Source: an uncultured Chloroflexia bacterium (GTDB lineage: Bacteria; Chloroflexota; Anaerolineae; B4-G1; SLSP01). From it: 26,814 nt of DNA. Below, piece by piece: positions 3,787 through 25,276 of the stretch. Numbering within the stretch: position 1 is the first letter of the stretch; every line of letters starts with the position of its first letter. The notes under the pieces are model-generated. The model was given only the letters and a program-made list of their open reading frames with translations. It was not told the DNA's origin and did not search any database. The position numbers and the translations under genes are program-made. The DNA is taken from contig CAVVUS010000015.1 in the NCBI GenBank assembly GCA_963751345.1, positions 1 to 26,814 of the forward strand. The letters run 5' to 3'.

Positions 3787-4867
3787 AGACTCCCACTCCC
3801 CACCGCGACAGCCGCCGCAGAGCATCCTGCGCCATTTCCTCATCGGCGATGCCGCCCACCGTCACCCACGCCCCTTCGGGTCGCAGAACGTCCATCAGGT
3901 CATCCAGCTCCTCGGCGGGCACGTAGAGACAGAAGGCCTTGTGAGCGGCCTGGATGCGTTGGTAGATGGGAATCCAGTCGGACCAGTGGTCGTGTCCGGC
4001 ACCGGGGACCCACTGGATGGCGTGGATCTCGGGCAGCGCCAATAGCGTATCCAGGAACCGCAGGGCTTGAGGCCCGTCCAGGTGGTAGATGTTGCGGTCC
4101 ATGTGCCTGCACTCCCGCACGATCCCCGGCAGAAAGACCTCCTCATACATACGGTTGGAGACCATGCACGAGAAGTCATTCGAGGGCACGTGATACTTGC
4201 CGCGACAGGTGGCGTTGAGCCACGTCGTGCTGGGCATCCCGGCTGCCTTGAGCTTCCGATCATAGATATCGTACAGCTCGATGAAGTCGTCGGTGACGCG
4301 CTCGCAGAGCGCCTTGACGTCTTCCGGATGGTCGATCATGTCCACGCATAACCTCTGGGGATCGCGGAAGGCCGCGACTGCGTCACCGCCGGGATGCAGA
4401 TCGGTGTAGCCCACAATGAACGTGTCCCGTCCGGCCTCGATCAGGGCATCCATCATCTCCAGGATCTTGCGAAAGTAGAAGTTACTCTTGTCGAGATGGA
4501 GCTCTGTCAGTCGCTCCGGATCCCAGCTCTCCAGAATGGGCTCACTCCACGAGGTCGTCTCGCCATATTCCAGAGGGCAGCCGTAGAAGGCCGAGAAGAC
4601 CTCCGGGCCGAGGTTCGGCCAGGCTGTCGGCAGGGCATCCGCGTAGGCGACCTGGTTGGCGAGAATCGCCGCAGTTCGCGCGACGACAAACTCAGTATCC
4701 ATCCAACGCTCGCGCACGGACGTGTGCGCCTTCTCCGGTACGGGAACCTGCTCAGCGTATGGTTTGGCAAACGTCATCGAGACCAGAGGCCGATCGACGA
4801 TGTCGCAGGCCCACCAGGCCTCATAGCGGTCGAGGACTTGGTCGAAGTCCGGCTTCATACTGAACAT
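3785..4867 (-). CDS. Uroporphyrinogen decarboxylase/MtaA-like (URO-D superfamily) protein of unknown function
   Basis: 360 aa, tightly packed in the operon. Motifs NLGP, RDPQRLCVD, NDFSCMVS..YEEVFLP, YHLDG and QWVPGAG are typical of uncharacterised URO-D-like proteins. Confidence 0.7.
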   Translation of the reverse strand: MFSMKPDFDQVLDRYEAWWACDIVDRPLVSMTFAKPYAEQVPVPEKAHTSVRERWMDTEFVVARTAAILANQVAYADALPTAWPNLGPEVFSAFYGCPLEYGETTSWSEPILESWDPERLTELHLDKSNFYFRKILEMMDALIEAGRDTFIVGYTDLHPGGDAVAAFRDPQRLCVDMIDHPEDVKALCERVTDDFIELYDIYDRKLKAAGMPSTTWLNATCRGKYHVPSNDFSCMVSNRMYEEVFLPGIVRECRHMDRNIYHLDGPQALRFLDTLLALPEIHAIQWVPGAGHDHWSDWIPIYQRIQAAHKAFCLYVPAEELDDLMDVLRPEGAWVTVGGIADEEMAQDALRRLSRWGVGV

Positions 4868-7806: not shown

Positions 7807-8286
7807 GTGAGTCTGATCGATGTGTTGGCTGAAGCGCTGAAGCTCGAGCTGGATGGGCGGGAGTTCTACACGCGGATGGTCGGGCGTATGGAGGACGAGG
7901 CCGGAAAAGCAATGTTCCAGCAGCTTGCAGAGGATGAGACAGACCATTACGCGTACATCAAGCGCCAGTACGACGCGTTGCAGGCCGGCAAAGGCTGGGC
8001 GGCGATTCCCGAGATGGACCTGGTCACGTCAATTGACGCTGTGTCAGTCGTCTTCCCACCCGATGAGAAGGGGCTGAAAGACCTGCCAGACGAACCCACC
8101 GAAGAGGACGCTCTGCTCTTTGGGCTCAACATCGAGGACGTGAGCTTCAAGCTCTACTACAACAACTCAGAGCGAACCAATGATCCGGAGGCAAAGCAAC
8201 TGTTCATGCAGTTGGCGAGCGCCGAACAGAGGCACTTTGAGATCCTTATGCAGCGATACGAATCGCGGTTTCACTATCCGAGGTAG
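7807..8286 (+). CDS. Ferritin-like diiron protein (rubrerythrin/erythrin family, no rubredoxin domain)
   Basis: GTG 7807 after AAGGAGG. Two repeats of A/G..xE....FY/LY followed by LAxxExxH (EDETDH, SAEQRH). Confidence 0.85.
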   Translation: MSLIDVLAEALKLELDGREFYTRMVGRMEDEAGKAMFQQLAEDETDHYAYIKRQYDALQAGKGWAAIPEMDLVTSIDAVSVVFPPDEKGLKDLPDEPTEEDALLFGLNIEDVSFKLYYNNSERTNDPEAKQLFMQLASAEQRHFEILMQRYESRFHYPR

Positions 8287-8972: not shown

Positions 8973-9010
8973 ATCCTGTCCTGCCACAGGATGATGTGGC
9001 AGGACAGGAT
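8973..9010 (+). terminator. 16-bp perfect hairpin between the peroxiredoxin and mutM
   Basis: ATCCTGTCCTGCCACA-GGATGA-TGTGGCAGGACAGGAT. No U-tract; ends 15 nt before the mutM ATG. Confidence 0.55.
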
Positions 9011-9025
9011 GGCCGCCACTGCATT

Positions 9026-9875
9026 ATGCCCGAACTGCCCGAAGTAGAGACCATCGCACGGCGGCTGCGCCCTGTCCTGACCGACCACACCGTGGAAGAC
9101 GTCGATGTCCTCTGGTCGCGAACCATCGACCGCCCGTCCCTGGACGCATTCCTGGTCCAACTGCGAGGGGCCCGATTCACCGGAATCCACCGGCGTGGCA
9201 AATACATCGTGATGGACCTGGACCGGCCCTGGACGCTGCTCGTCCACTTGAGAATGAGCGGAAAGTTCGCCGTGCACGCGCCCGACGAAGGGACCCGGCG
9301 ACGATAAGCATACCCGGGTCGTCATGCGTCTGGACGACGGGACCTGGGTCGCGTACGTCGATCAGCGTAAGTTCGGACGGTTCTACCTCGTCAAGAATAG
9401 TGATGAAATCGTAGATAGATTGGGTCTGGAGCCACTCTCACCGGAGTTCAGCGTGGGGTGGCTGCAGAGGGCGCTGTCGGGGCGTCGAGGTGAGATCAAG
9501 CGGCTGCTGCTGGATCAGCGGTTTCTCGCCGGATTGGGCAATATCTACGTCAGCGAAAGCCTCTGGCTGGCCAGGATTCATCCGGCCCGCGTGGCCGGCT
9601 CGTTGACGGCGGAGGAATGCCGCCGGCTGCACGGCGCCATCATCGAGGTGCTGCAGCAGAGCATCGGCAATGGGGGCACCAGTCTGGAGGATCGACAGTA
9701 CGTCTATCCGGACGGTGAGATCGGGAACCACCAGGTGCATCTCAAGGTCTACGATCGAGCAGATGACGCGTGCCCTCGCTGCGGGTATGCGCTGGAGCGG
9801 TTCGTACAGGGGCAGCGAAGTACTTATTTCTGTCCGGTCTGCCAGCCCCTCGACCCTCAAGCAGCATCAGGTTGA
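9026..9875 (+). CDS. mutM: Formamidopyrimidine-DNA glycosylase (Fpg), one apparent +1 frameshift at ~9290
   Basis: MPELPEVET, RRGKY and HLRMSG in the first frame. DQRKFG, LLDQ..LAGLGNIY and the CPRC...CPVCQ zinc finger in the second. Removing one G in GAAGGGA rejoins them. Confidence 0.92.
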
Positions 9876-11402: not shown

Positions 11403-12297
11403 TCACCTCGTGGTTGATGTCGCAGCCAAGGATAGCAGATCGAGGTCTTCCCGCAACTGCATCCCCGCCGCGCCCAACCGCGCCGCGATCTCGGCGAGCG
11501 TCTCGCCGGTCTCCGGATGGACGTAGTAGGGAGCCAGATCGGCCACAGGGACGGCCACATGAGCATATCTCTGGAGATCGGGATCCGGGACGTGGCGGAG
11601 GCCCATTTCAAACACGTCATAATTGAAGAGCGCGATATCAAGATCGATGGTCCGGGGCGCGTTCTTATCTGAGGTTCGAACGCGCCCCAGCATTTGCTCG
11701 ATCTCTGACAGGACGTTGCCCTTGAGGTCACGTGGCGACAGGTACGTCATCAGGAGAACCGCCGCGTTGAGGAACTTCGCCTGACCGACGCTGCCCACCG
11801 GGGCAGTTTCATAGACCGGCGAGGTGCGAACGACCGTCACATCATCGTGCTCGCGAAGCAGTGCGACAGCGGCCCTCAGGTTTTCCTCCGGATCGATATT
11901 CGATCCCAGCGCGACGAACGCGCGGTTGGGCTCATGGGCGAGATCGGTCCGCGTACGGACGATTTCGATCCCCACCGATCGGGCGAACCGCAGCGCGCCG
12001 GGCTTCTCCAGGACCACCCGCGCGGCCTCCACGCGGGTGTCAGCCAAACAGATCGCGGCGATCTCCGCCGCCAAGCGTTCCACCAGGTAGAAGCTTGACG
12101 CTTCGACCATACGGATGACGCGCTTGGTGATCGTACGGTAGTTGACGGCATCGGCAATCTGATCGCGATCGGCCCGCGGCCCGCGTGTCCGCCGTCAGCG
12201 TGAGGTTGATCAGGACGTCCTGGCGGTTCTCGCGCTCCTCCTCATTGATGCCCACGATCGTGCGCAGGAGGAGGTCTTTGACGTGAATCTGATCCAT
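11403..12297 (-). CDS. folK: Fusion of dihydroneopterin aldolase/epimerase (FolB/FolX-like) and HPPK (FolK), one apparent frameshift at ~12165
   Basis: ATG 12297 gives MDQIHVKDLLLRTIVGINEEER..RQD, which continues after the shift with NYRTITK...LVERLA...KPGA. In the same frame follow ALGSNI, SPVYET.PVG, FLNAA and GRVR..KNAPRTIDLDI. Confidence 0.87.
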
Positions 12298-12301
12298 GGC
12301 T

Positions 12302-13033
12302 CTACAGGTGCTCCCCACCGGTCACGTAGATCAAGTCGCCGGTGACGAAGTCGGCGCCAACCAGATAGAGCACAGCCCTGACGACGTCGTCGGGCGACCC
12401 AAAGCGTTTTGCGGGTATGCCCTCTGCTTTGCGCTCCAGGAAAGCCTCGTCGAGGCCGGGCGGGGGTAGGATCATCCCCGGTGCAATCGCGTTTACCTGC
12501 ACATCCGGCGCCAGGGCAAGCGCCAGGCTCTTGGTCATGGCGATAAGGCCGGCCTTTGTCAGTGTGTAGGCAAAGTGATCCGTCCCCGGGCGGACACCCC
12601 GCCAGTCCGCGATGTTGACGATATGTCCCCGGCGCGACGAATCCTTGAGGTAACGGCCAAACGCCTGGCTGAGGAAGAAGGGCGCCTTCAGGTTGATCGC
12701 GAAGTGACGATCCCAGTTCTCCTCCGAGGTGTCGTCCCAGCGCCCTCGCTCGAAGATCGCGGCGCTGTTCACCAGGATGTCCAATCTTCCGAACGCCCCG
12801 ACCACCTTTTGAATAAGGTCCGCCGGCCCTGCCGCCCCTGTGAAATCGGCCTTGAGAGCCAGCGCCCGCCGGCCCATCGCCTCGATCTCCGAGACCACTC
12901 CCTCGGCAGGGCCTGCCGAGCTGTTGTAGGTGAGCGCCACATCGGCCCCGTGCTCGGCCAAGCCCAGGGCTATGGCCTTCCCAACGCGAACCGCCCCACC
13001 CGTGACGAGAGCAACCCTCCCTGTGAGACTCAC
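12302..13033 (-). CDS. SDR oxidoreductase, pteridine reductase (PTR1/FolM-like)
   Basis: TGGAVRVG (Arg-containing PTR-type Rossmann motif), LVNSA, NIAD (Asp in place of Ser), YxxxK (YTLTK), VNAIAPG. Lies between folE and folB-K. Confidence 0.85.
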   Translation of the reverse strand: MSLTGRVALVTGGAVRVGKAIALGLAEHGADVALTYNSSAGPAEGVVSEIEAMGRRALALKADFTGAAGPADLIQKVVGAFGRLDILVNSAAIFERGRWDDTSEENWDRHFAINLKAPFFLSQAFGRYLKDSSRRGHIVNIADWRGVRPGTDHFAYTLTKAGLIAMTKSLALALAPDVQVNAIAPGMILPPPGLDEAFLERKAEGIPAKRFGSPDDVVRAVLYLVGADFVTGDLIYVTGGEHL

Positions 13034-13895: not shown

Positions 13896-15247
13896 CTATT
13901 CCACGGCCACGCTCCCCTGTCCGGCCTCCTGCCAGCGTGCCTCGCCGCGGGTCACTCGCTGCATCGTCAGTGCGGCGAGAAAGAAGAAGATCACAGGCAT
14001 GAGAAGCACCAGTCCATAGTTGCCCGATCGCTCGATGACGAACCCATTGAGCACAGGTCCGGCAATGGCGGCCAACTGCGACGCCAGATAGTAGAAGCCG
14101 GTGTAGGTTCCCACGTCGGCATCACTATCCGAGGTGTCCACCACCATCGGCAGCGAGTTGATGTTCACCAGCGCCCAGGCGCACCCACCGAGAGCGAGCG
14201 CCCCGCCGATCACGTAGATGCTGGGTACGAAGTAGCCGATCAGGAGCAGGACGGCGAAGATGACAAGGCCGAACGTAATCGTCCTCCTCCTGCCCACCCG
14301 CACAGCGATGAAGCCGCTCGGGACCGCGAAGGCGATGAAGGTGATGTAGGAAATGCTGGAGAGGAGCGACGCTTGGTTCTCCTTGATGCCCAGGACGTTC
14401 ACGCCATACGACGTGAAAAACGTCTCGATCGCATTATATCCCACAAACCAGAGGAAAATCGACAACATCAGCAGGAGGAGACTACGTCGGGCCCCTGGCG
14501 AGATGCGGCGCAGACCGCGCAGAGCCTGCAGCTGTACCTCCTCGCGCTCGTCGGGCGCGTAGATGACCTGGCGCTGCTCGTGCACAAAGAAGACCAACAT
14601 CAGCACGGCCGCCGCCATCAGCACGCCCGCCACGATAAAGGGCAGGGCTATGTCAATGCCATAGAGCCAGGCGCCCACCAGCGTGATCACGACGCCGCCC
14701 AGCCCGCCCATCAGATTGATCACGCCGTTGGCCTCACTCCGCAACGGCGAGGGGGTCAGGTCGGGCATCAGCGCGATGACCGGGGTGCGGAATCCGGCCA
14801 TCGCCAGCAGAAAGATGCCGACGGCGAGGAGGAACAGGGCCATAGTACCACCCAAGCACCGGCGTCTCCCCACTCAGCACGGGCGGAATCCCCTTGACCA
14901 CGAGGGGGATGACGACGAACGCGGCGATGGAAATCGGCGCCAGTGCCATGATGAAAGGCTTCCTGCGCCCGAACCGCGTCCACACGCGATCGCTCCACAC
15001 GCCGATCAGGGGGAGCAGAAAGAGACCGGCGATGTTGTCGAGCGTCATCAGGAAGCCGGTGAGTGCGGCGCCCAAGCCCGAACCCCGAGGCTTTGGTGCT
15101 CGTCTGGAAGGCCGGGTTGCCGGCTTGCAGGAAGATCGGCACGTAGTCATTGTACAGTTTCCACATCACACTGATGCCGAAAAAGCCAAAGCCAATCAGA
15201 AATGTCTTGCGGTAGTCGAGTTTTGGGCGGGATTCCTGGCCTTCCAT
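13896..15247 (-). CDS. MFS transporter (SLC45/GPH sucrose-maltose type), two apparent frameshifts (~15075, ~14865)
   Basis: Three overlapping frames give TFLIGFGFFG..., PLIGVWSDR..TRFGRRKPFI and ALMPDLTP..LRSEANG, with about 12 hydrophobic segments and GxYTGFYY. Confidence 0.85.
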
Positions 15248-15408: not shown

Positions 15409-16186
15409 TCCGACTCTGATGAGGCGAACCCGGGGATGTGAAAACCGCATGCGGCGAACTGCGCCAATAGGTCATCCGGCGACGACTCCCACTGGCCCGT
15501 CTTGCGCGAGATGTGCTCGGTCCAACTGTAGGTCTCGTAGGTGAAGGTCTCCTCGCGGTCGCCCTCCAGGCGGATCATGGCCCGGTGCCGGCGATAATAG
15601 TCCTGGGCGAGGTACCCCTCATCCATTGCGGCCGCCGCCCGCTCGATCTGCTCCTCGCTGAACCGCGGGTACTCGTCCTCAAAGAGTGTGAAGTCGAGGG
15701 GATAGCGCGGGCGCGGCGGCGGGTTCTCACCGGGATACCCCATCGTCAGCCCCACGAGCGGAAAGACCCGTCTCGGGAGCTTGTATTGCTCGACGATACG
15801 GTCGGCGTGATAGGGGATGCCGCCCAGGAAGCAGCTACCGAGGCCCAGACTCTCCGCGGCGATGACCAGGCTTCGGCCATCAGCGTCGCGTCCTGGATGC
15901 CAAAGAGAAGCAGCGAAAGATCGTTCTGGACCATCTGCCAGCCGCGCTTGGCCATGATCGCCTCGTGACGGTGGGAATCGACGCAGACGATGAAGAAGAG
16001 CGGCGCCCCGAACGGGTTGTGCGCCCGATCGCGCGAGAGCAGAAGGCTGCCCATCTGGTAGGCAAAGGGCGCCTGTTGCCCTGCACGGACGATCGTCTCG
16101 ACGACCTCGTCCGCCGGCACCTGGTCGGTATAGATGCGAATGGATGCGCGATTCATCATGGTCTCGATGACCGGATTGTTCAACAT
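15405..16186 (-). CDS. Nitroreductase (NfsA/NfrA-like), one apparent -1 frameshift at ~15873
   Basis: ATG 16186 after GAAGGAG. NRASIRIYTD and AGQQAP; after the shift AAESLGLGSCFLGGI and FPLVGLTMGYP...PRPR. Confidence 0.85.
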
Positions 16187-16336
16187 GCTCACTCCTTCAT
16201 CTTCGTGATCAATGCACATAGACTAGACCAAAGGGCACGTTTCGCCAAGTTCAGAATCGTCCGGGTTGTGCAAATCCAAGGATCTGCGACACTAGGGCGA
16301 ACCGCTCACAGCGCTCGCACGACGGCAGGAGGCGCG

Positions 16337-17665
16337 ATGACATCCCAGACCGAGGGCAGGACATACCATCTCCCGTGGGGACGAGAGCAAATTGACGTCT
16401 CGTTGCCGGCGGCGTGGCAGGTTGCCGGTGTCCTGGAGCCCGCTCCGACGCCCGGCGTTGCGGACACCCGGGCAGAGGTGGAGCGAGGGCTGGGCGCGCC
16501 CGTGGGCTCTCGCAGGCTGAGCGATCTGGCGAAAGCGGCCCACCGGGTGGCGATCGTGATCGACGACGATAGCCGCCCGACGCCGGTGCACCTCCTGCTC
16601 CCCGCCGTCGTGGCCGAGCTGGAGGCGGCAGGCGTGGCGCGCGAGGCATGACGGTGGTGACGGCGCTGGGCGTGCACCACCCGATGAGCGAGGCCGAGGT
16701 CGTTCGAGGGCCGGGCGACCTGGTGACCCAGGGGCTCCGCTGGGAAAACCACGACTGCTACACCGCCGATGGCCTCGTCCATCTTGGGACGACGCGGTGG
16801 GGGACCGAGGTGTGGATCAACCGGACCGTGGCGGAGGCCGATCTGGTCGTCTCGATCGGCTGCATCGAGCCACACCTGATCGCCAGCTTCGGCGGGGGGT
16901 ACAAGAACCTGATCCCCGGCGTGGCAGGGCGGGAGACGATGGGGCACAACCACGCGCTGAATGCCAGTCCCGGGACCTTCAACATGGTCGGCCAGCCGAT
17001 CGCGGACAACCCGATGCGGCTCGATCTGGAGGAGGGGGCGCAAATGCTCAAGCCGCCGGTCTTCCTGGTCAACGCGGTGCTCAATAGCGCGCTGGACGTG
17101 GTCCGTGTGGTGACCGGCGATCCCGTCGCGGCCCACCGCGAGGGCACGCGCGTCAGCGCCGAGATCTACGGCAGCCGCTTCGACCAACCGGCCGACGTCG
17201 TCATCGCCTCGACGCACCCGATGGACCAGGATCTGCGCCAGGGGAGCAAGGCGCTGGCCAACACGATCCGGGCGGTACGCCGCGGCGGGGTCCAGATCAT
17301 CCTGATGCGCGCGGAGGAGGGGTTGGGCGTCTTCGGCCTCGCCCAGCGGAGCCTGCCGCTCAAGCGGCGGGGGCTCAAGTTCCTCGCGCCGCTGCTGGTG
17401 CGCATCGTCCCCAGGATGAAGTCAGGGCAACATGCCCGACGATGAGCGCTTCTACCTCTACTTCGCGCTGCAGGCGATGCGCCACTGCACCACGCTGATC
17501 TACGCCCCGACGGTGCCGGAGGAGGCACGATCGGGGCTGCCCTTCGTCATCTTCGTGGACTCGGTCGAGGAGGCCATCGCCTACGCAGAGAAGCGGCATC
17601 CCCGCGCCCGCACACTGATCTTCCCCCACGGCGGGAGCACCTATCCGATCCTGAGCGGACGGTAG
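16337..17665 (+). CDS. larA: LarA-family nickel-pincer-dependent alpha-hydroxy-acid racemase/epimerase, apparent frameshifts at ~16648 and ~17430
   Basis: ATG 16337 after AGGAGG. Motifs IVIDDDSRPTP, ALGVH, NHDC, LGTT..GTEVWIN, IEPH..ASFGGGYKNLIPGVAG, HNH, QGSKAL and terminal IFPHGG.T.P. Confidence 0.85.
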
Positions 17666-17738: not shown

Positions 17739-18760
<1,022 letters not shown>

Positions 18761-18840
18761 GATCCGCTCCGTGGCACTTAAGCTTCGACAGGCAAATCCA
18801 GTATAGCATACCGATCCGGTTCATTGGCACATCGGCACAC

Positions 18841-18902
18841 GAATCCATCCCCCGAATCCACGTTAGGGTGGATGATCTAGGCACGAAGCCTCCCCTTACA
18901 CT
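18841..18902 (+). promoter_or_regulatory. Activator-type promoter, copy 1: GAATCCAC-N6-GTGGATGA plus -10 TACACT
   Basis: Palindrome at 18854-18875, extra half-site GAATCCAT at 18841-18848, TACACT at 18897-18902. Same architecture at 22226-22273. Confidence 0.65.
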
Positions 18903-18999
18903 GCCAAAGGGGAGGCTGGGCTCACCTGTAAGCTTTTTCTGCGGCAGCGCGCTTGCCCAAACAGGAAAAAAAAAAAAAAAACTCACGGAGGAAGTAAAT

Positions 19000-19122
19000 A
19001 TGCCATGGCGCAGTCTTGGTGTGGGAGAACTGATTCTATTGATCTGCTGCCCGAGCAGCATGCTCGCCGTCGTCGTTGGTGTCGTTCTGTGGCTGGTTAC
19101 CAAGAACAAGCGTAAGCAATAG
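19000..19122 (+). CDS. 40-aa small membrane protein (MPWRSLGVGELILLICC...VTKNKRKQ)
   Basis: GGAGG RBS at 18987-18991, long hydrophobic stretch followed by a basic tail, LGxxEL start. Confidence 0.55.
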   Translation: MPWRSLGVGELILLICCPSSMLAVVVGVVLWLVTKNKRKQ

Positions 19123-19141
19123 GGCAAACGACCTCCACCGA

Positions 19142-19361
19142 ATGAGTGACCACGAGAACGACCAGCAGGCGGTCTACAGGATCCGCCTAGCCGACGTCCT
19201 TGACGAGGGCTGGTCAACCGGGTTCGATGGCATGGAGGTCACAGTGCAATCCAACGGCGACACCTCTTGACCGGCCCCATTCGAGATCAGGCGGCGCTCC
19301 ACGGCATCCTGGCGAAAGTTCGCGACATGGGGCTGTCCTGTTGTCCGTCCAGCGACTCTGA
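19142..19361 (+). CDS. Small conserved-type hypothetical protein (~72 aa, YxIR...W...DQAALHG.L.K.RD.GL), apparent indels at ~19265 and ~19336
   Basis: First frame MSDHENDQQAVYRIRLADVLDEGWSTGFDGMEVT..NGDT, then LTGPIRDQAALHGILAKVRDMGL, then LLSVQRL*. Confidence 0.7.
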
Positions 19362-19550
19362 GGCATCTTCAGAATAAGTTGCTCAGTTGAGTTGGTTCCA
19401 ATATTTTTTTACATTCTCCCCTGTTCCTGGAACTTTCCCCGCATCGTGAACGTTGTAATATGTGGGATGTCGCTTCGCGACATACCACATGTACGGCTGG
19501 GTACCGGATAGCTTTTAGTATTCGGGCCCTCACGATGACAGGGAGAGGAA

Positions 19551-22184
19551 ATGGAAGCTCCGCTGTTGACCACCAAACTCTACGTGCCCACAACCCAACC
19601 GGAGATCGTGCCTCGGCACACATCATCGACCGGTTGAACGCAGGGCTGCACCGTAGGCTCTCCCTCGTGTCGGCGCCCGCAGGCTTCGGAAAGACTACGC
19701 TACTCAGCGCGTGGGCTGGAACGTGTGGTCGGGAAGTCGCATGGGTCTCGCTCGACGAGAGTGATAACGACCCCGCGCGCTTCTGGGCCTACGTCGCCAC
19801 CGCGCTTGCCAGGGCGGGAGCCGACGTCCGGCCCATCGCGCAGGCAGCGCTTCACTCCCCGGAACCGCCCTCAACAGAGACGCTGCTGATCCCGCTGCTG
19901 AACGGGATCACCGAGACGCCCGCCCCGCTGCTCCTCGTCCTCGACGATTACCACACGATCACGACACGGCAGATTCACGAAGGGCTGGGCTTCTTCCTCA
20001 ATCACCAGCCACCCCACGTCCACCTCGCCATCGCCACCCGCGCGGACCCCCCGCTACCCCTATCGCTTCTGCGCGGACGCGGGCTGCTCACGGAGCTCTA
20101 CCAACGCGACCTGCGGTTTACGTCAGAGGAAGCCGCGACGCTGTTAAACCGGGTCATGGACCTGCCGCTCTCGCCGGAGGAGATCGAGGCGCTGGAGCGA
20201 CGGACGGAGGGCTGGATCGCGGGCCTGCAGATGGCGGCGGTCTCTATGCGCGGATGCACCGACAGGGCCACGTTCGTCCGGGCGTTCAGCAGCAGCAACC
20301 GGTACATCTTCGACTACCTGGTTGAGGAGGTGCTTCGACGACAGCCGCCCCACGTCCGGCGCTTCCTGCTGCGGACCTCCATCCTCGATCGCCTCTCCGG
20401 CGACCTGTGCGAGGCTGTCATCAGGTCCGACGACGGGCCGATCATGCCGCAGACTCGCAGTCCCTGCTCGAATATCTGGAGCGCAACAATCTCTTCGTCG
20501 TCCCGCTGGACGATGGACGACGATGGTACCGCTATCACCATCTCCTCGCGGACCTGCTGCGTCGGCGACTGGAGCGGGAAGCACCCGGACTCGTGCCCGA
20601 GTTGCACGATCGCGCTAGCAAATGGTACGAGCAGCGCGGGCTCACCACCGAGGCCGTGCACCACGCGATCGCCTCCGGCAGCTTCGAGCGTGCAGCGCAC
20701 CTAGTCCAGCAGATGGGATGGTCGGTCTTTGCGCGTGGCGAACTAACCACGGTGCTCGGTTGGATCGCCGCCCTCCCGGACGAGGTCGTGCGCTCACACC
20801 CCGACCTGCACGTCCTCCAGGCATGGGCTATGGCGAAGTCGGGACGGCTGGAGGACGTCGAGCCGTCCCTGCAAGCTGTCGCCCCGCACGAGCTGCAGGG
20901 CGAGGTGGCCGCGGTCCGCGCCTACGTGGCCGGTGTGCGCGGGGACCTGCCACGCGCGGTGGCGCTTGCCGAGCGGGCATTGGCGCAGTTGCCCGAGGAG
21001 AACGACTTTCTGCGCGCCATCGTCGTGCAGAACCTGGGCACCGCCTATCACTGGCGCGGCGACTCGATGGCCGCGAGCCGAAGCTTGACCAGGCGGTGAA
21101 GCTCAGCCGGGCCGCGGGCCAGGCCCACCAAACCCTGACCGCGATGGCGGTATTGGGCCGCACGTACGAGATGCAAGGGGCGCTGCGGCGGGCAGCTGCG
21201 ACCTACCGGGAGGCTCTCGATCTGGCATCTGGGCCGGGCGACCGGCCTGTACCGTTCGCCGGGATGGCCTACGTGGGCCTGGCCGGGCCGCTCTACGAGT
21301 GGAACGACCTGGACAATGCCCGGCACTATGCGCTAGAGGGCATGCGGTTGAGTGAGATGGGCGGGTTTGTGGCCTATGAGGTCGCCGGTGGCGCTCGCCT
21401 CGCGGCGGTCTACCAAGCACAGGGCGACGGCGACAAAGCCATCGCTACGCTCCGGCGGGCGGAACAGCTGGCGATGAGCCGTGATTATGGGCTCGTCAGG
21501 GCGCTGATCGACGAACTGCGCGTCCGGCTGTGGATTGCAAAGGGCAACATCGCGGCGGCGGGGCAATGGGCGCGGGCCCACAGGCGAGATCCGGGTTGGA
21601 CTTCAACGCGGCCAGTGAGATCGAGCAAATGGCGGTGGCCCGGGTGCTCGTCATCCAGGGAAAGCGCAGCGAGGCCTGGGACCTGCTGGGCCACCTATTG
21701 GATGCCGCGCGGGCTTCAGGGCGAACGACCACGAGATTAAGCTCTTGGTGTTGCAGGCGTTGACCTGCCGGAACGGGAACACCTCGACCCAGGCACTGAG
21801 GGCCCTTGAGCAGGCGCTAACCCTGGGCGAACCGGAAGGCTACGTGCGCACCTTTATCGACGAGGGAGAGCCAATGGTCCGGCTGCTGCAGCGCGCCCTA
21901 TCCCAGGGACTGATGCCCGACTACGTGGCTAAGCTCTTGGACGCCACCGGCGACGGGGCGCAACCCTCTCCTTCCCCGTGACCGCGATGATCGATCCCCT
22001 CACCGAGCGCGAGGTTGACGTGCTCCGCATGATGGTCGCCGGCCTGTCCAACCCCGAGATCGCCGAGGCATTGTACATCGCTATAAGCACGGTGAAGACG
22101 CACGTGAACCACATCTACGGCAAACTCGACGCCACACACCGTGCCGCAGCCGTGGCACGCGCGCGGGAGCTCAGCCTGCTCTGA
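19551..22184 (+). CDS. MalT-like STAND ATPase/TPR/LuxR transcriptional regulator (~880 aa), about six apparent frameshifts
   Basis: ATG 19551 after GGAGAGG gives MEAPLLTTKLYVP. Walker A APAGFGKT, Walker B LVLDDYH, TRADPPL, RTEGWIAGL, WYRYHHL, helical repeats, GYVRTFIDEG, LuxR HTH LTEREVDVL..GLSNPEIA..TVKTH..IYGKL. Confidence 0.9.
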
Positions 22185-22193
22185 CGTCTCACC

Positions 22194-22273
22194 ATCAACC
22201 GCGATCGGACTCCGGATCAACCTGTGAATCCACCTGACGGTGGATGACCTACGGCCCTCACACGTGCTACAGT
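22194..22273 (+). promoter_or_regulatory. Activator-type promoter, copy 2: GAATCCAC-N6-GTGGATGA plus -10 TACAGT
   Basis: Palindrome at 22226-22247, upstream ATCAAC half-sites at 22194 and 22216, TGC-TACAGT at 22265-22273. Confidence 0.65.
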
Positions 22274-22312
22274 GCTTATGCAGTGCCTATTGGTCAAGCG
22301 CGAGGAGATGAA

Positions 22313-24067
22313 GTGAACAGATCAAGTTGGACAAGACTCACTACCGCCGTGCTGATCTGCGTGCTGGGCTATAGCGCCTGCACGGGCGGCGGCGCCCCGC
22401 CATCCACGAACACGACGGAGGCGGCTCCGGCACCGACAGCACAGCCGCCGGTCATGGCGACGCACTATGGCGACGCCGGTCCCGCGCCCGTCCGCAACGG
22501 TGCCGGCCTCCCCAAGCCCAATCGACGCCGGACGCCGAGGGAGAAGAGCAGCGCACCCCGACGCCCACAGCGCAAGCACACAACCGACGCCAACGCCGGC
22601 TAGCCGCAGTACGTCGAGCGCTCCCACCGAGCGCATCGAGTTCCTACCCGGCGCCACGACCTTCTCGCTGACAGGGCACCTTCCGGCAAACGGAGACAAG
22701 CTCTACGTGATGAACGTCGCGGTCGGGCAGTACATGGAGATCGACGTCGCCGCGGAGGGAGGCGCGGAGCCTGCGCCTCTCCCTGACCGGCGCCGACGGT
22801 ACAGTCATCCAGTGGCTTGGGCCGCCACACCTGAAAGCCGTCGTTCCCAGCACCCAGGATTATACCCTCCGGATCGCCAGCGCCGTCGAACCCGTGGACT
22901 ACGCCCTGAGCGTCTTCATCCCCGTCCGCATCGTCTTTGCGCCGGGCACGACCCAGGCGACGGTGACCGGCGTCCTGACGGGCGACGAGATGCGAAGCTA
23001 CGTCCTCCGCGCGTCGGCGGGCCAGACGCTGTCTGTCGAGACCACGGCGACGCAGGGCGCGGTGAAGACAGTCATCGCCGGAAGCGACGGCACCGTGCTG
23101 GTGAGCGGCAACGTGGCAGCGGGCCCGGTCCTGGGCCCCCTCACCCTGAACACGACGCAGGACTATCTCATCACCGTGCTGGACGTGAGCGGGGAGGGCG
23201 CACAGTACGAGATGACCGTCCGGATCCCTGCTGCGCCGACGCCCTCTACATCGCCGCCCTCCGGCGTCCCACGGATCACGTCCTTCACGGCACAGGTCAC
23301 CGGTGGCGCCGCCGGGGAGAGCATCGAGCTCAAATGGGAGGCCGCCGGTGAACGGGGCATGCTCTGCCCTATCGTGGGCGCGCATTGGGCAGGCTGCGCG
23401 TGTCTGTTCGACGTGCCGCTCGCGGGGACGCGGACCGTCGGGCCCGACGAGATCGTGGGGCACACCACCGGATTCGAGCTAGTCGTCGATGGGGCGGGCG
23501 AGCGGGTGACGGAAACCGTCGACCTCGACGTTGCGTGCCCGGTGGGAACGCCGGCGTGGTTCTTCGACGCACCACCGCCGATGTGTCCTCGTGCGCCGGC
23601 CCTGCACACGCCTGCAGCTGCGCAGCGATTCGAGCGAGGGGTACATGATCTGGCTGGCCGAGGAGGACACCTACTATCTTCTCTACGACGACTACCTGCT
23701 GCCCTCCCTGGATCTGCTCCCATCCACCTCGGGCGGGAGCCTGCAGATCCTGCGCGGCCCCCTGGACCTCGAACCCGGTGCCGACCCCGATCACCGGACC
23801 GGGGAGACCCCGCCACCGGGACGCGTCGAGCCGGTCAGCGGCTTCGGCCTGATCTGGCGCGGCGAGGTGCAGGGCGTCGAGGGCGTGCGGGCGCGGCTCG
23901 GCTGGGCCGTGGAGGAGGAAGCCGGGTTCGAAGGCGCCGTCCAGTGCGAGGTGCCCTGCGGCGCCCACTGGCATTGCTACCTCCGCGATCCTCAGGGCGC
24001 AATCGTCCATCTGACCTACGAGCGCCCCCTGGGCTACATGTGGGCCCCTTGGCCCACGGGGCAATAG
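22313..24067 (+). CDS. Large secreted lipoprotein: Pro/Thr linker, two PPC-like beta-sandwich repeats and a C-terminal QxFExG/GFG-LGWA domain; at least 3 apparent frameshifts
   Basis: GTG 22313 after GAGGAG. Signal peptide ending LGYSAC; repeats RIEFLPG.../RIVFAPG... with GQ and TQDY; AQRFERG(Y)MIW; PVSGFGLIW..VRARLGWA. Confidence 0.72.
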
Positions 24068-24149
24068 CGGCAACGAGACACAGGGCCCGCCCACCTAACC
24101 GCACCCCAGATACCAGCCCCCCAGCACAGCGTGCAACCCGATCTTCAGT

Positions 24150-24178
24150 TTGCGCCGGCAGGCAGTCGGGACTACATT
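24150..24178 (+). promoter_or_regulatory. Promoter placed for a leaderless sialidase mRNA
   Basis: TTGCGC (24150-24155)-N17-TACATT (24173-24178), 6 nt before ATG 24185. No SD sequence. Confidence 0.5.
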
Positions 24179-24184
24179 CCGGCT

Positions 24185-25276
24185 ATGGATATTGAGCGAT
24201 TCGAACAGCAAGATCTCTTTGTCAGCGGCGAGGGTGGGTACGCTCGCTACCGCATCCCCGCTCTGGCGGTCTCGACGAAAGGCACCGTGTTGGCCTTCTG
24301 CGAGGCGCGCAAGTTCACGGGCCAGGACTCTGACCAGATCGATCTCTTCCTCCGTCGCAGCTTTGACGGCGGGCGTACCTTCGAGCCCGTCCAGGTCGTG
24401 GCGACTCAGGAGGGATGGGTCTGCGGCAATCCCGCGCCGGTCGTGGACCGTGACACGGGCAGGATCTGGCTGCCGTTCTGCAAGAACCTCAAGGACGGCG
24501 ACGAGACGATGATCTGCGAGGGGAAGGCCCCGCGCCAGGTCTGGATGACGACCAGCGACGACGACGGGGCGACCTGGGCCGAGCCCTGGGAGATCACCCG
24601 CGACGTGAAACCGCCCACGTGGTCGTGGTACGCGACCGGCCCGGGCCACGGCATTCAGCTCCAAAGTGGGCGCCTGGTCGTTCCCTGCGATCACATCGTC
24701 TTTGAAGCCTACAATCGTCAGGATCCTTACCATTCGCACGTGATCACCAGCGACGATCATGGCGCGACGTGGCAGATCGGGGGAAGTGCAGATGAGGGCA
24801 CGAACGAATCCGCGGCCTTCGAGACCGTGGATGGTTGGCTCTACCTGAACTGTCGCAACAAGCACCGTCTCGCCGAGGGCGGCAACTATCGCGCCGTTGC
24901 CTGGAGCCGCGATGGCGGGACGAGCTTCGCTCCCATCATCCACGACGCCGCCCTCTTGGAGCCGATCTGCCAGGCCAGCGTGTGCCGGTTCACGACGGCA
25001 GCACAACAGGACCGCAACCGCGTGCTCTTCTCCAACCCCGCCAGCCGCACGCGAGATCACCTGACGGTGCGGATGAGCTACGACGAAGGGCGGACGTGGC
25101 CCATCAGCCGGCTGTTGCACGCCGGGCCTGCCGCCTACTCGGACCTGTGTGTCACGCAGGACCTGAGCATCTGCTGTCTCTACGAGCGAGGCGCGGAGAC
25201 GCCCTACGAGCGGATCTCGCTGGCGCGGTTCAACCTCGCTTGGCTCACGGGCGGGACGGATCGGCTCGACCGTTAG
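24185..25276 (+). CDS. Sialidase/neuraminidase family (GH33), no signal peptide
   Basis: YRIP motif, five Asp-boxes (SFDGGRTF, SDDDGATW, SDDHGATW, SRDGGTSF, SYDEGRTW), GPGHGIQ, TNE, NCR, AAYSDL and LYE. Confidence 0.9.
   Translation: MDIERFEQQDLFVSGEGGYARYRIPALAVSTKGTVLAFCEARKFTGQDSDQIDLFLRRSFDGGRTFEPVQVVATQEGWVCGNPAPVVDRDTGRIWLPFCKNLKDGDETMICEGKAPRQVWMTTSDDDGATWAEPWEITRDVKPPTWSWYATGPGHGIQLQSGRLVVPCDHIVFEAYNRQDPYHSHVITSDDHGATWQIGGSADEGTNESAAFETVDGWLYLNCRNKHRLAEGGNYRAVAWSRDGGTSFAPIIHDAALLEPICQASVCRFTTAAQQDRNRVLFSNPASRTRDHLTVRMSYDEGRTWPISRLLHAGPAAYSDLCVTQDLSICCLYERGAETPYERISLARFNLAWLTGGTDRLDR

What the first reader, a model, noticed from the sequence alone, without database searches (positions are those of the whole stretch)
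18841..24067. Self-contained STAND (MalT-like) signalling module with its likely operator visible twice
Seen: the 22-bp element GAATCCAC-N6-GTGGATGA occurs at 18854-18875 and 22226-22247, one on each side of the MalT-like regulator. Each copy is followed after 20-21 nt by a TACAxT -10 with no good -35. Each is preceded by further ATC half-sites at roughly helical spacing (18831, 18843, 18856; 22194, 22204, 22216, 22228). Known: MalT-type STAND regulators oligomerise and bind arrays of sites to activate promoters that lack a -35. Inference: this regulator activates a two-unit regulon, (i) the 40-aa membrane peptide plus the DQAALHG protein and (ii) the large lipoprotein. I know of no characterised operator, ligand or regulon for this kind of module, so it is the best candidate here for an undescribed system.
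Basis: partly seen in the sequence, partly recalled or inferred. Interest (0 to 1): 0.78.

Follow-up and report, generated by a model that had tools for sequence, protein, structure and literature searches.

The report
MalT-box promoters flanking a MalT-like regulator
The repeated 22-bp element is real and is most likely the binding site of the neighbouring MalT-like regulator, a variant of the known MalT box, and related genomes show the same layout, usually driving a small protein of unknown function.

Summary
ATCCAC-N6-GTGGAT occurs exactly twice in the window (0.01 expected), at the stated coordinates. Each copy has a TAnnnT -10 hexamer 20-21 nt downstream.

A motif learned only from 68 related regulator loci ranks these two sites first and second in the window. 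In those loci the same layout sits next to the regulator: one or two direct boxes, an inverted box ending in GGA(T/G)GAC, then TAnnnT 18-19 nt later (49 of 57 sites). Box sequence changes with the regulator's recognition helix.

The right arm carries GGATGA, the core of the E. coli MalT box. It lies about as far from the expected start site as the mapped MalT motif of Actinoplanes. So this is a variant of a known operator, not an uncharacterised one.

The new point is the usual target: a ~80-aa ferredoxin-like protein ("DQAALHG") with no Pfam or NCBIfam family. It has 14,602 cluster representatives and occurs in 47 of 79 loci.

Caveat: the regulator has six frameshifts, the small protein two and the lipoprotein at least three. 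Other window genes are also split, and a 104-nt poly-C run lies nearby, so sequence error is the likelier cause. Ligand, binding and start sites are untested.

The parts
18841..18849 (+). Site 1, upstream direct box (GAATCCATC), a direct copy of the left arm 13 nt upstream
   Evidence: Read. It corresponds to the first box of the 36-nt family motif, which scores 11.9 nats at 18842, the best score in the window.
18854..18875 (+). Site 1, inverted repeat GAATCCAC-N6-GTGGATGA. The right arm carries the MalT-box core GGATGA (18870-18875).
   Evidence: It lies in the divergent intergenic region between the aldo-keto reductase gene (minus strand) and the peptide ORF.
18897..18902 (+). Predicted -10 hexamer TACACT of unit (i). 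Start site expected near 18909.
   Evidence: It lies 20 nt after the GAT that corresponds to the family's GAC. The family mode is 18-19 nt.
19000..19122 (+). 40-aa hydrophobic peptide ORF (MPWRSLGVGELILLICC...KNKRKQ), with GGAGG 8 nt upstream of its ATG
   Evidence: It has no homologue in the 79 loci (best tblastn E 1.6). L008 has a 74-aa membrane ORF in the same position before its small-protein gene. Whether the window ORF is a real gene is unsettled.
19142..19377 (+). Small 'DQAALHG' protein gene, broken by two frameshifts (near 19267 and near 19340)
   Evidence: The family HMM built from the loci hits three overlapping frame pieces (E 1e-8 to 3e-10).
19551..22184 (+). MalT-like STAND regulator: P-loop NOD, MalT-type TPR sensor and LuxR/GerE HTH. 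It has six single-base frameshifts near 19617, 20434, 21078, 21593, 21725 and 21970.
   Evidence: Pfam TPR_MalT and GerE. tblastn of P0001, an intact 875-aa relative (83% identical over the NOD stretch), gives 7 pieces of 76-95% identity in frames 3,2,1,3,2,1,3.
22215..22222 (+). Site 2, upstream direct box (GGATCAAC), 11 nt upstream of the left arm
   Evidence: It lies within the 36-nt motif match at 22214 (10.3 nats, second best in the window).
22226..22247 (+). Site 2, inverted repeat GAATCCAC-N6-GTGGATGA, starting 42 nt after the regulator's stop codon. GGATGA is at 22242-22247.
22268..22273 (+). Predicted -10 hexamer TACAGT of unit (ii). Start site expected near 22280.
   Evidence: 19 nt after GAC, the family mode
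22313..24067 (+). Secreted or lipid-anchored protein (GTG start, signal-like helix, Cys, Pro/Thr-rich linker, two beta-sandwich domains), broken by at least 3 frameshifts
   Evidence: tblastn of the intact 580-aa relative P0241 (95% identical over the searched part) gives frames 2,3,1,2. No Pfam or NCBIfam family. AlphaFold2 model of P0241: mean pLDDT 52.8, confident only for residues 101-300.

Best explanation
Each copy of the element is an array of binding sites (boxes) for the MalT-like regulator encoded between them. An array has one upstream direct box plus an inverted pair whose promoter-proximal arm reads GGTGGATGA(C/T). It overlaps the -35 position of a promoter that has only a TAnnnT -10 and a partial -35.

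By analogy with MalT, an unknown inducer binds the TPR sensor and the ATP-bound NOD oligomerises. The HTH domains then occupy the boxes cooperatively and recruit RNA polymerase. Transcription would start near 18909, giving the peptide and the small DQAALHG protein, probably reading on into the regulator itself. It would also start near 22280, giving the secreted or lipoprotein gene.

Shown: the repeat, its geometry, its conservation next to related regulators, and box/helix co-variation. Inferred: binding, activation, oligomerisation and start sites. The frameshifts are most likely sequence errors.
For: 1. The repeat is not chance: 2 found against 0.01 expected.

2. Independent recognition. 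A 36-nt motif was learned by expectation-maximisation from the 300 nt after the stop codon of 68 related regulators, with the window excluded from training. It ranks the two window sites first and second of all positions on both strands (11.9 and 10.3 nats, next best 6.7).

3. The motif is real in the relatives. Over 1.13 Mb it gives 57 hits at 12 nats or more, against 0, 1 and 0 in three shuffles. 33 hits are in the training zones and 24 elsewhere. 38 of 57 lie within 300 nt of a MalT-like gene end, a zone that covers 4.2% of the sequence.

4. Promoter geometry, using columns outside the motif model. 49 of 57 sites have TAnnnT exactly 18-19 nt after the GAC, against a background of 0.0036 per position. 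The window values are 20 and 19.

5. Boxes co-vary within a site. Left arm against the upstream direct box: 4.94 of 7 matches within a site, 4.53 between sites. Left arm against the reverse complement of the right arm: 4.63 against 4.18. 0 of 5000 permutations reach either value.

6. Box type follows the recognition helix. STVK[ST]H[VI]NH[IL]YGKL (window, L001, L007, L008, L020, L022) goes with GG(T/A)GGA(T/G/A)GAC or GGTTGATGAC. NTVRTHTKNLYMKL goes with GTGGTGAG. DTVKKH..H[VI]L.KL goes with GGGTGA(C/T)G, or ACGTGACG in L078.

7. Two-sided arrangements recur. 9 loci have 2 or more sites. L008 has one site after the regulator and one divergent site before it.

8. Family. The intact relative P0001 passes NCBIfam's MalT model (546.7 bits, cut-off 537). 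It also matches E. coli MalT structures 8bob (E 5e-64) and 1hz4 (E 4e-20).

9. Precedent. The MalT-box core is GGA(T/G)GA. The Actinoplanes MalT motif TCATCC-5nt-GGATGA overlaps the -35 and lies 34.4 +/- 1.0 nt from mapped start sites, and deletion or overexpression of that malT changes 40-42 of 51 local genes (PMC7567727, passages read). Here GGATGA ends about 33-34 nt before the expected start sites.
Against: There are no binding or transcription data.

All 79 loci were fetched through the regulator. Adjacency of motif and regulator is therefore partly built into the sample, and 33 of the 57 hits come from the zones the motif was trained on.

The expectation-maximisation step overfits on its own. 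On shuffled input it gave 4, 7 and 15 sequences at 12 nats or more, against 33 for the real data.

Box/helix co-variation is confounded with phylogeny.

The exact 12-base core occurs in 0 of 79 loci.

The inverted hexamers are spaced ATCC-N10-GGAT. This is 5 bp more than in Actinoplanes, so the register in which the site equals a MalT box is ambiguous.

As written, the regulator gene cannot give a full-length protein (six frameshifts).

Site 1's spacing to the -10 is one base beyond the family mode.
Confidence: 0.75

Rival explanations
1. The element is a promoter or operator used by something other than the adjacent regulator. Candidates are another transcription factor, or the housekeeping sigma factor reading (A)TGAC(C/A) as a -35. 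In this reading the MalT-like gene is only a neighbour.
For: The right arm ends in ATGACC or ATGATC, 18 or 19 nt before the -10. In the closest relatives it ends in ATGACA, 17-18 nt before. That is a partial TTGACA. All loci were chosen through the regulator, so there is no regulator-free background.
Against: A bare -35 does not explain the conserved direct and inverted boxes upstream of it, or their co-variation within a site and with the regulator's recognition helix. In the actinomycete-type sites TGAC sits 3 nt further from the -10 (about 20 nt of spacer; my reading). No other regulator gene was found among the window ORFs scanned, although ORFs under about 120 aa outside the module were not scanned.
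Confidence: 0.12
2. The inverted repeat is an RNA hairpin: a terminator or attenuator of the regulator's transcript.
For: Site 2 begins 42 nt after the regulator's stop codon and can form a 7-bp stem with a 4-nt loop. Many related sites also follow the regulator's stop, often with a TTCG loop.
Against: No T run follows, and no terminator-like site was found in 18600-22500. Folding is unexceptional, with z between -0.7 and -1.2 on either strand. Site 1 follows no co-oriented gene. It lies between divergent genes. Related sites also occur upstream of and divergent from the regulator (L008, L040, L053, L068, L076). A hairpin does not explain the upstream direct box or the fixed 18-19 nt distance to TAnnnT.
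Confidence: 0.04
3. The module is a decayed, non-functional pseudogene cluster, and the sites are relics.
For: There are six frameshifts in the regulator, two in the small protein and at least three in the lipoprotein.
Against: Genes elsewhere in the window are split in the same way: Fpg, FolB, the Lar_N protein and an MFS transporter. A 104-nt poly-C run replaces part of the aldo-keto reductase gene, and an A16 run follows. Apart from the shifts the reading frames are clean, and the pieces match intact relatives at 76-95% (regulator) and 95% (lipoprotein). All six regulator shifts go the same way, as systematic miscalls would.
Confidence: 0.1

Closest known systems
E. coli MalT and its MalT boxes (maltose regulon activator)
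   Same: The domain order is the same: P-loop NOD, arm, superhelical TPR-type sensor, LuxR HTH. P0001 passes NCBIfam NF003420 and matches PDB 8bob and 1hz4. The box core GGA(T/G)GA is present in both window sites. Several boxes lie in an array that overlaps the -35 region. MalT multimerises on inducer and ATP and binds its boxes cooperatively (PMC4381067 and PMC6906923, passages; box sequence quoted in PMC7567727 and PMC9628970).
   Different: No maltose genes are nearby. The targets are a peptide, a small unknown protein and a secreted protein. The inducer is unknown. The box is extended (GGTGGATGAC) and paired with an inverted copy 4-6 nt away. The organism is probably a member of the Chloroflexota, judged from the relatives' record names. 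The HTH could not be compared with MalT's, because no MalT DNA-binding domain appeared among the solved-structure matches.
Actinoplanes sp. SE50/110 MalT (ACSP50_3915) and its maltose-regulated large genomic region (Droste et al. 2020, PMC7567727)
   Same: A MalT-like LuxR activator controls neighbouring non-maltose genes. It acts through a palindrome ending in GGATGA that overlaps the -35, 34.4 +/- 1.0 nt from the start site. The window's GGATGA ends about 33-34 nt from the expected start sites.
   Different: The motif there is TCATCC-5nt-GGATGA. Here it is ATCCAC-N6-GTGGAT, so the ATCC/GGAT cores are 10 nt apart rather than 5. An extra direct box lies upstream. There are two promoters here against 17 mapped there. 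Whether that region encodes a DQAALHG-type protein was not checked.
LAL (large ATP-binding LuxR) regulators of Streptomyces, e.g. SCO6993
   Same: An N-terminal ATP-binding domain plus a C-terminal LuxR HTH, binding short palindromes (PMC9628970, passages).
   Different: SCO6993 is a 606-aa repressor whose footprinted sites share no consensus. The protein here is about 875 aa with a MalT-type TPR sensor, and its site layout is sharply conserved.
ACT-like / ferredoxin-fold small regulatory domains (for the small protein only)
   Same: The predicted fold is beta-alpha-beta-beta-alpha-beta (pLDDT 84.3). The best PDB matches are ACT domains of the acetohydroxyacid synthase regulatory subunit and of RelA/SpoT.
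   Different: The matches are weak (best E 0.018, TM 0.47-0.65) and are shared with acylphosphatase and ribosomal protein S6. No ACT or other Pfam or NCBIfam hit was found. This is a fold resemblance only.

Membership tests
MalT/LAL-type STAND regulator | N-terminal P-loop NTPase (NOD) with Walker A | tested here: met
   SAPAGFGKTTLL is in the translated frame. Pfam AAA_16 gives E 1.3e-5, but 26.2 bits is below the 32.6 cut-off on the fragment. Relative P0001 aligns to the E. coli MalT NOD-arm structure 8bob_C over residues 5-416, E 5e-64.
MalT/LAL-type STAND regulator | MalT-type TPR/superhelical sensor domain | tested here: met
   PF17874 TPR_MalT is found in three consecutive frame pieces (profile positions 1-61, 63-230, 274-335; E 9.5e-12, 3.6e-37, 3.2e-17). 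P0001 matches 1hz4 at E 4e-20.
MalT/LAL-type STAND regulator | C-terminal LuxR/GerE helix-turn-helix | tested here: met
   PF00196 GerE, E 5e-19, 68.1 bits against a cut-off of 23.5. Closest solved relatives are VraR and NarL-type DNA-binding domains.
MalT/LAL-type STAND regulator | One uninterrupted reading frame of about 875-900 codons | tested here: not met
   There are six frameshifts. They are judged likely sequence errors because other window genes are split too and a poly-C artefact lies nearby.
MalT/LAL-type STAND regulator | Inducer- and ATP-dependent multimerisation | not testable with these tools
   Needs biochemistry.
MalT-box-dependent promoter | Box with core GGA(T/G)GA | tested here: met
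   GGATGA is at 18870-18875 and 22242-22247. Regulators with the same recognition helix have GGATGA, GGAGGA, GGAAGA or TGATGA at that place. The consensus is quoted from PMC7567727 and PMC9628970.
MalT-box-dependent promoter | Proximal box overlapping the -35, about 34-35 nt from the start site | tested here: inconclusive
   The geometry fits only if the start sites are 6-7 nt after the TAnnnT hexamers. No start site has been mapped.
MalT-box-dependent promoter | Several boxes per promoter | tested here: met
   Each window site has three boxes, two direct and one inverted. The same is seen in the family motif, and the boxes co-vary within a site.
MalT-box-dependent promoter | Bound and activated by the MalT-like protein | not testable with these tools
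   Only indirect support: adjacency and box/helix correspondence.
Maltose regulon | Targets are maltodextrin uptake or catabolism genes | tested here: not met
   The targets are a peptide ORF, the DQAALHG protein and a secreted beta-sandwich protein. No mal-type family was found in the window ORFs scanned.
Intrinsic terminator | GC-rich stem followed by a T run | tested here: not met
   0 terminator-like sites in 18600-22500. Fold z-scores are -0.7 to -1.2.
ACT domain (small protein) | Match to an ACT sequence family | tested here: not met
   No Pfam or NCBIfam hit for the intact relative. Only weak fold matches were found.

The most novel reading that the evidence does not exclude
The small ferredoxin-like 'DQAALHG' protein may be the dedicated partner of this clade of MalT-like STAND regulators. 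It is the most common first gene behind their box promoters. It could act back on the regulator as a co-sensor or anti-activator, as MalK, MalY and Aes do for E. coli MalT (the MalY and Aes roles are recalled, not checked). Alternatively it could pass the signal to membrane partners. Two representatives are fused to a DUF6326 membrane domain, and in the window and in L008 the gene follows a small membrane ORF. That would define an unrecognised two-protein signalling module spread across Chloroflexota and Actinomycetota.
Probability: 0.3. Interest if true: 0.7.

Novelty: new variant of a known kind. Interest (0 to 1): 0.5.

Why it matters
MalT-like LuxR regulators are very numerous in Chloroflexota and Actinomycetota. 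Almost none has a known operator, target or ligand.

This analysis gives a concrete and testable site model for a whole clade: a box array at a fixed distance from the -10. It shows that box sequence tracks the recognition helix. It also links the clade to a very large unannotated small-protein family (14,602 cluster representatives at E <= 0.001). With these points, regulon prediction from sequence becomes possible for these regulators, and the small protein gets its first functional context.

The window itself is an ordinary member of the clade, in a poor-quality assembly.

Tried and rejected
- Exact core motif in the 79 loci: 0 matches. Only the degenerate layout is conserved.
- ATCC-N10-GGAT in the loci: 26 found against about 17 expected, so not informative.
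- nhmmer seeded with the two window sites alone: only two weak hits in the loci (L020 E 0.65, L001 E 5.9), plus one weak hit elsewhere in the window at 25051-25088 (E 0.9).
- A generic search for 'direct repeat plus inverted repeat': the first run timed out. The vectorised rerun gave 406 hits against 211-236 in shuffles, too noisy to use.
- Expectation-maximisation controls: control regions 3 kb away gave 4 sequences at 12 nats or more, and shuffles gave 4, 7 and 15, against 33 for the real data. The EM count is therefore not used as evidence by itself.
- Third and fourth upstream boxes: not conserved.
- Complex prediction of the L061 regulator (residues 1-850) with its small protein: no verdict, score 0.00. 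This is no evidence either way.
- Protein atlas for the small protein and for the lipoprotein relative: only unnamed Chloroflexota clusters.
- Pfam and NCBIfam: nothing for the peptide, the small protein or the lipoprotein.
- Fold search for the small protein: weak, generic ferredoxin-like matches.
- Fold search for the lipoprotein model. The model has low confidence outside residues 101-300. It gave tandem beta-sandwich binding modules such as the ColG collagen-binding domains and CUB domains. One domain resembles the lysozyme inhibitor PliG (4dzg, target TM 0.75, 26% identity). These are leads only.
- Literature: 'DQAALHG' is in 0 papers. A search for MalT/STAND/LuxR/Chloroflexi listed nothing relevant among the 12 shown. 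A search on LAL binding sites and direct repeats listed 3 papers, seen only as a listing. No paper was found on the small protein or on this clade's operator. Subscription journals are outside the library.

Full report
**The observation**

The 22-bp element GAATCCAC-N6-GTGGATGA is present at 18854-18875 and 22226-22247. Its 12 specified core bases, ATCCAC-N6-GTGGAT, match exactly twice on both strands of the 26.8-kb window. The mean over 100 dinucleotide-preserving shuffles is 0.01, and none reaches two. Relaxing to two mismatches adds nothing. The similarity runs on for 26 nt.

TACACT (18897-18902) and TACAGT (22268-22273) follow at 21 and 20 nt. Of 39 GGATGA hexamers in the window, three have TAnnnT 18-23 nt downstream, and two of those are these sites.

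Each site has one further direct copy of the left arm: GAATCCA at 18841 and GGATCAAC at 22215.

A consensus scan finds no sigma-70 promoter and no terminator in 18600-22500. The right arm does end in ATGATC or ATGACC, a partial TTGACA 19 or 18 nt before the -10. 'No good -35' is therefore only roughly true.

**The genes**

The central gene is a MalT-like STAND regulator. It has a Walker A motif, Pfam TPR_MalT in three pieces, and GerE. It is not intact. An 875-aa relative, P0001 (83% identical over the NOD stretch searched), aligns in seven pieces. The frames run 3,2,1,3,2,1,3, which means six single-base shifts all in the same direction.

The small 'DQAALHG' gene (19142-19377) has two shifts. 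The downstream secreted or lipoprotein gene (22313-24067) has at least three.

This is not special to the module. Fpg, FolB, a Lar_N protein and an MFS transporter elsewhere in the window are also split. A 104-nt poly-C run replaces the middle of the neighbouring aldo-keto reductase gene, and an A16 run sits in the leader of unit (i). Intact relatives exist for the regulator (P0001) and for the lipoprotein (P0241, 580 aa, 95% identical over the searched part). I read the frameshifts as sequence errors (about 0.9) rather than gene decay.

**Related loci**

By their record titles they are mostly Chloroflexota (Anaerolineae and others) and Actinomycetota. The source genome is not among them. The exact core motif occurs in none of them.

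The DNA just after the stop codon of the closest regulators nevertheless shows the same construction as the window's site 2:
- one or two direct boxes of the type (A)ATCCACCCC about 12 nt apart;
- the last box paired with an inverted copy across a 4-6 nt gap;
- the inverted copy ending in GGA(T/G)GAC;
- then a TAnnnT hexamer.

I learned a 36-nt motif by expectation-maximisation from the 300 nt downstream of 68 regulators, with the window left out of training. It then gave 57 hits at 12 nats or more in 1.13 Mb, against 0, 1 and 0 in three shuffles. 33 hits are in the training zones and 24 elsewhere, including sites upstream of and divergent from the regulator. 38 of 57 lie within 300 nt of a MalT-like gene end, a zone that covers 4.2% of the sequence. 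The same motif ranks the two window sites first and second in the window (11.9 and 10.3 nats, next 6.7).

Expectation-maximisation overfits by itself: shuffles gave 4, 7 and 15 'sites' against 33. The weight therefore rests on features the model did not see.
- 49 of 57 sites have TAnnnT exactly 18-19 nt after the GAC, against 0.0036 per position in the background. The window values are 20 and 19.
- The boxes of one site resemble each other more than boxes of other sites do. The figures are 4.94 against 4.53 of 7, and 4.63 against 4.18. 0 of 5000 permutations reach either value.

**Who binds**

Box sequence follows the regulator's recognition helix.
- Helix STVK[ST]H[VI]NH[IL]YGKL (window, L001, L007, L008, L020, L022) goes with right arms GGTGGATGAC, GGTGGAGGAC, GATGGATGAC, GGTGGAAGAC, GGTTGATGAC and GGAGGATGAC.
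- The Nocardioides-type helix NTVRTHTKNLYMKL goes with GTGGTGAG.
- The helix DTVKKH..H[VI]L.KL goes with GGGTGA(C/T)G, or ACGTGACG in L078.

This is what a cognate protein-site pair would show, though shared ancestry would give some of it too.

The hairpin or terminator alternative is weak. There is no T run. Fold energies are ordinary. Site 1 lies between divergent genes. A hairpin also explains neither the extra direct box nor the fixed distance to the -10.

**Comparison with what is known**

The right arm contains GGATGA. The MalT box of E. coli and Klebsiella is GGGGA(T/G)GAGG with core GGA(T/G)GA, and it overlaps the -35.

In Actinoplanes sp. SE50/110 a MalT-like regulator activates a block of non-maltose genes through TCATCC-5nt-GGATGA. 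That motif was found upstream of 17 mapped start sites, 34.4 +/- 1.0 nt from the start site. Deletion and overexpression of that malT confirmed the effect (PMC7567727, passages read; box also quoted in PMC9628970).

MalT multimerises with inducer and ATP and binds its boxes cooperatively (PMC4381067 and PMC6906923, passages).

P0001 passes NCBIfam's MalT model and matches the MalT structures 8bob and 1hz4.

The differences are:
- the spacing of the inverted cores (ATCC-N10-GGAT here, N5 in Actinoplanes);
- the extended box;
- the targets;
- the unknown inducer.

**The targets**

The first ORF after 21 of the 57 sites belongs to one small-protein family, the window's 'DQAALHG' protein. Other first genes include ABC-transporter ATPases (L005, L018, L028, L050, L052, L056, L075), an MFS transporter, oxidoreductases, hydrolases and a CAAX protease.

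A family HMM finds the small protein in 47 of 79 loci. 35 of its 56 copies lie within 500 nt of a MalT-like gene, a zone that covers 6.9% of the sequence. Of these 35:
- 22 are just after the regulator on the same strand;
- 8 are divergent and before it;
- 3 are before it on the same strand, as in the window;
- 2 are after it on the opposite strand.

The family has no Pfam or NCBIfam model, and every name shown in the search listing is 'hypothetical'. It has 14,602 cluster representatives at E <= 0.001 and 7,444 at <= 1e-10. The string DQAALHG occurs in no paper of the library.

Its predicted fold is beta-alpha-beta-beta-alpha-beta (pLDDT 84.3). PDB matches are only weak and ACT-like. Two representatives are fused to a DUF6326 membrane domain.

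The 40-aa peptide ORF has no homologue in the loci. L008, however, has a 74-aa membrane ORF in the same place before its small-protein gene, behind a divergent box site.

The lipoprotein family is small, with 14 hits. Homologues lie downstream of the regulator in L007, L008 and L022. P0242 and P0244 come from contigs of the same lengths as those of the regulators P0001 and P0002 (12,366 and 38,763 nt), so they are probably the same contigs. Only two beta-sandwich domains of the lipoprotein model are confident.

**Verdict**

The repeat is real, and it is very probably the operator of the adjacent regulator (0.75). The module is a member of a very large, uncharacterised MalT-like clade. The operator is a variant of the MalT box, not a new kind. 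The most interesting by-product is the clade-wide link to the small unannotated protein, whose role is open. Binding, activation, start sites and the ligand remain untested. The genome-wide enrichment test could not be run.

Noticed in passing
window 18414-18517 and 18966-18981: A run of 104 C replaces the middle of an aldo-keto reductase gene on the minus strand. Pfam profile positions 2-57 and 193-289 survive on either side. An A16 run lies in the leader of the peptide ORF. Both look like assembly or sequencing artefacts.
   Followed up: partly
window 8996-9875, 11403-12318, 13896-15150, 15965-17445: Fpg, FolB/HPPK, an MFS transporter and a Lar_N (lactate racemase-like) gene are each split between ORFs in different frames. 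Indel errors therefore run through the whole window.
   Followed up: partly
window 19551-22184 and 22313-24067: All six frame changes in the regulator go the same way (frames 3,2,1,3,2,1,3). All three in the lipoprotein go the opposite way (2,3,1,2). The junctions are not at obvious homopolymers. Unexplained.
   Followed up: partly
window 18800-18805 (minus strand): A TATACT hexamer on the minus strand lies upstream of the divergent aldo-keto reductase gene. Site 1 would sit roughly 35-75 nt upstream of it, so the array might also influence that gene (my reading).
   Followed up: no
window 24068-25276: A BNR/sialidase-like gene (Pfam BNR_2, E 1.2e-34) follows the lipoprotein on the same strand after about 130 nt. 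It could belong to unit (ii).
   Followed up: no
L009 about 4400-4520, L015 about 210-336, L016 about 4540-4662, L021 about 7850-7972: Four small-protein genes share a different, highly conserved upstream element (AATAACACTTTCGAGTCAT ... AAAAT(T)GACCCTTTTG(C/T)GTGGCGAC ... TATACT). It looks like another box dialect, missed at the 12-nat threshold.
   Followed up: no
L018 5398-5700: A second MalT-like gene starts about 20 nt after the stop of the first, giving tandem paralogues. Two box sites lie 3-3.5 kb downstream.
   Followed up: no
L007 6851-7681, L022 4840-5661, L020 10899-11714: Rce1-like CAAX protease genes recur downstream of the box promoters in three loci. ABC-transporter ATPase genes are the first gene after the site in seven loci.
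   Followed up: no
P0266, P0274: The small-protein domain is fused to a DUF6326 membrane domain in two representatives. P0256 carries two copies in tandem.
   Followed up: partly
L053: One Chloroflexia-labelled locus carries four box sites around its regulator. Two of them lie in front of cupredoxin-like genes.
   Followed up: no
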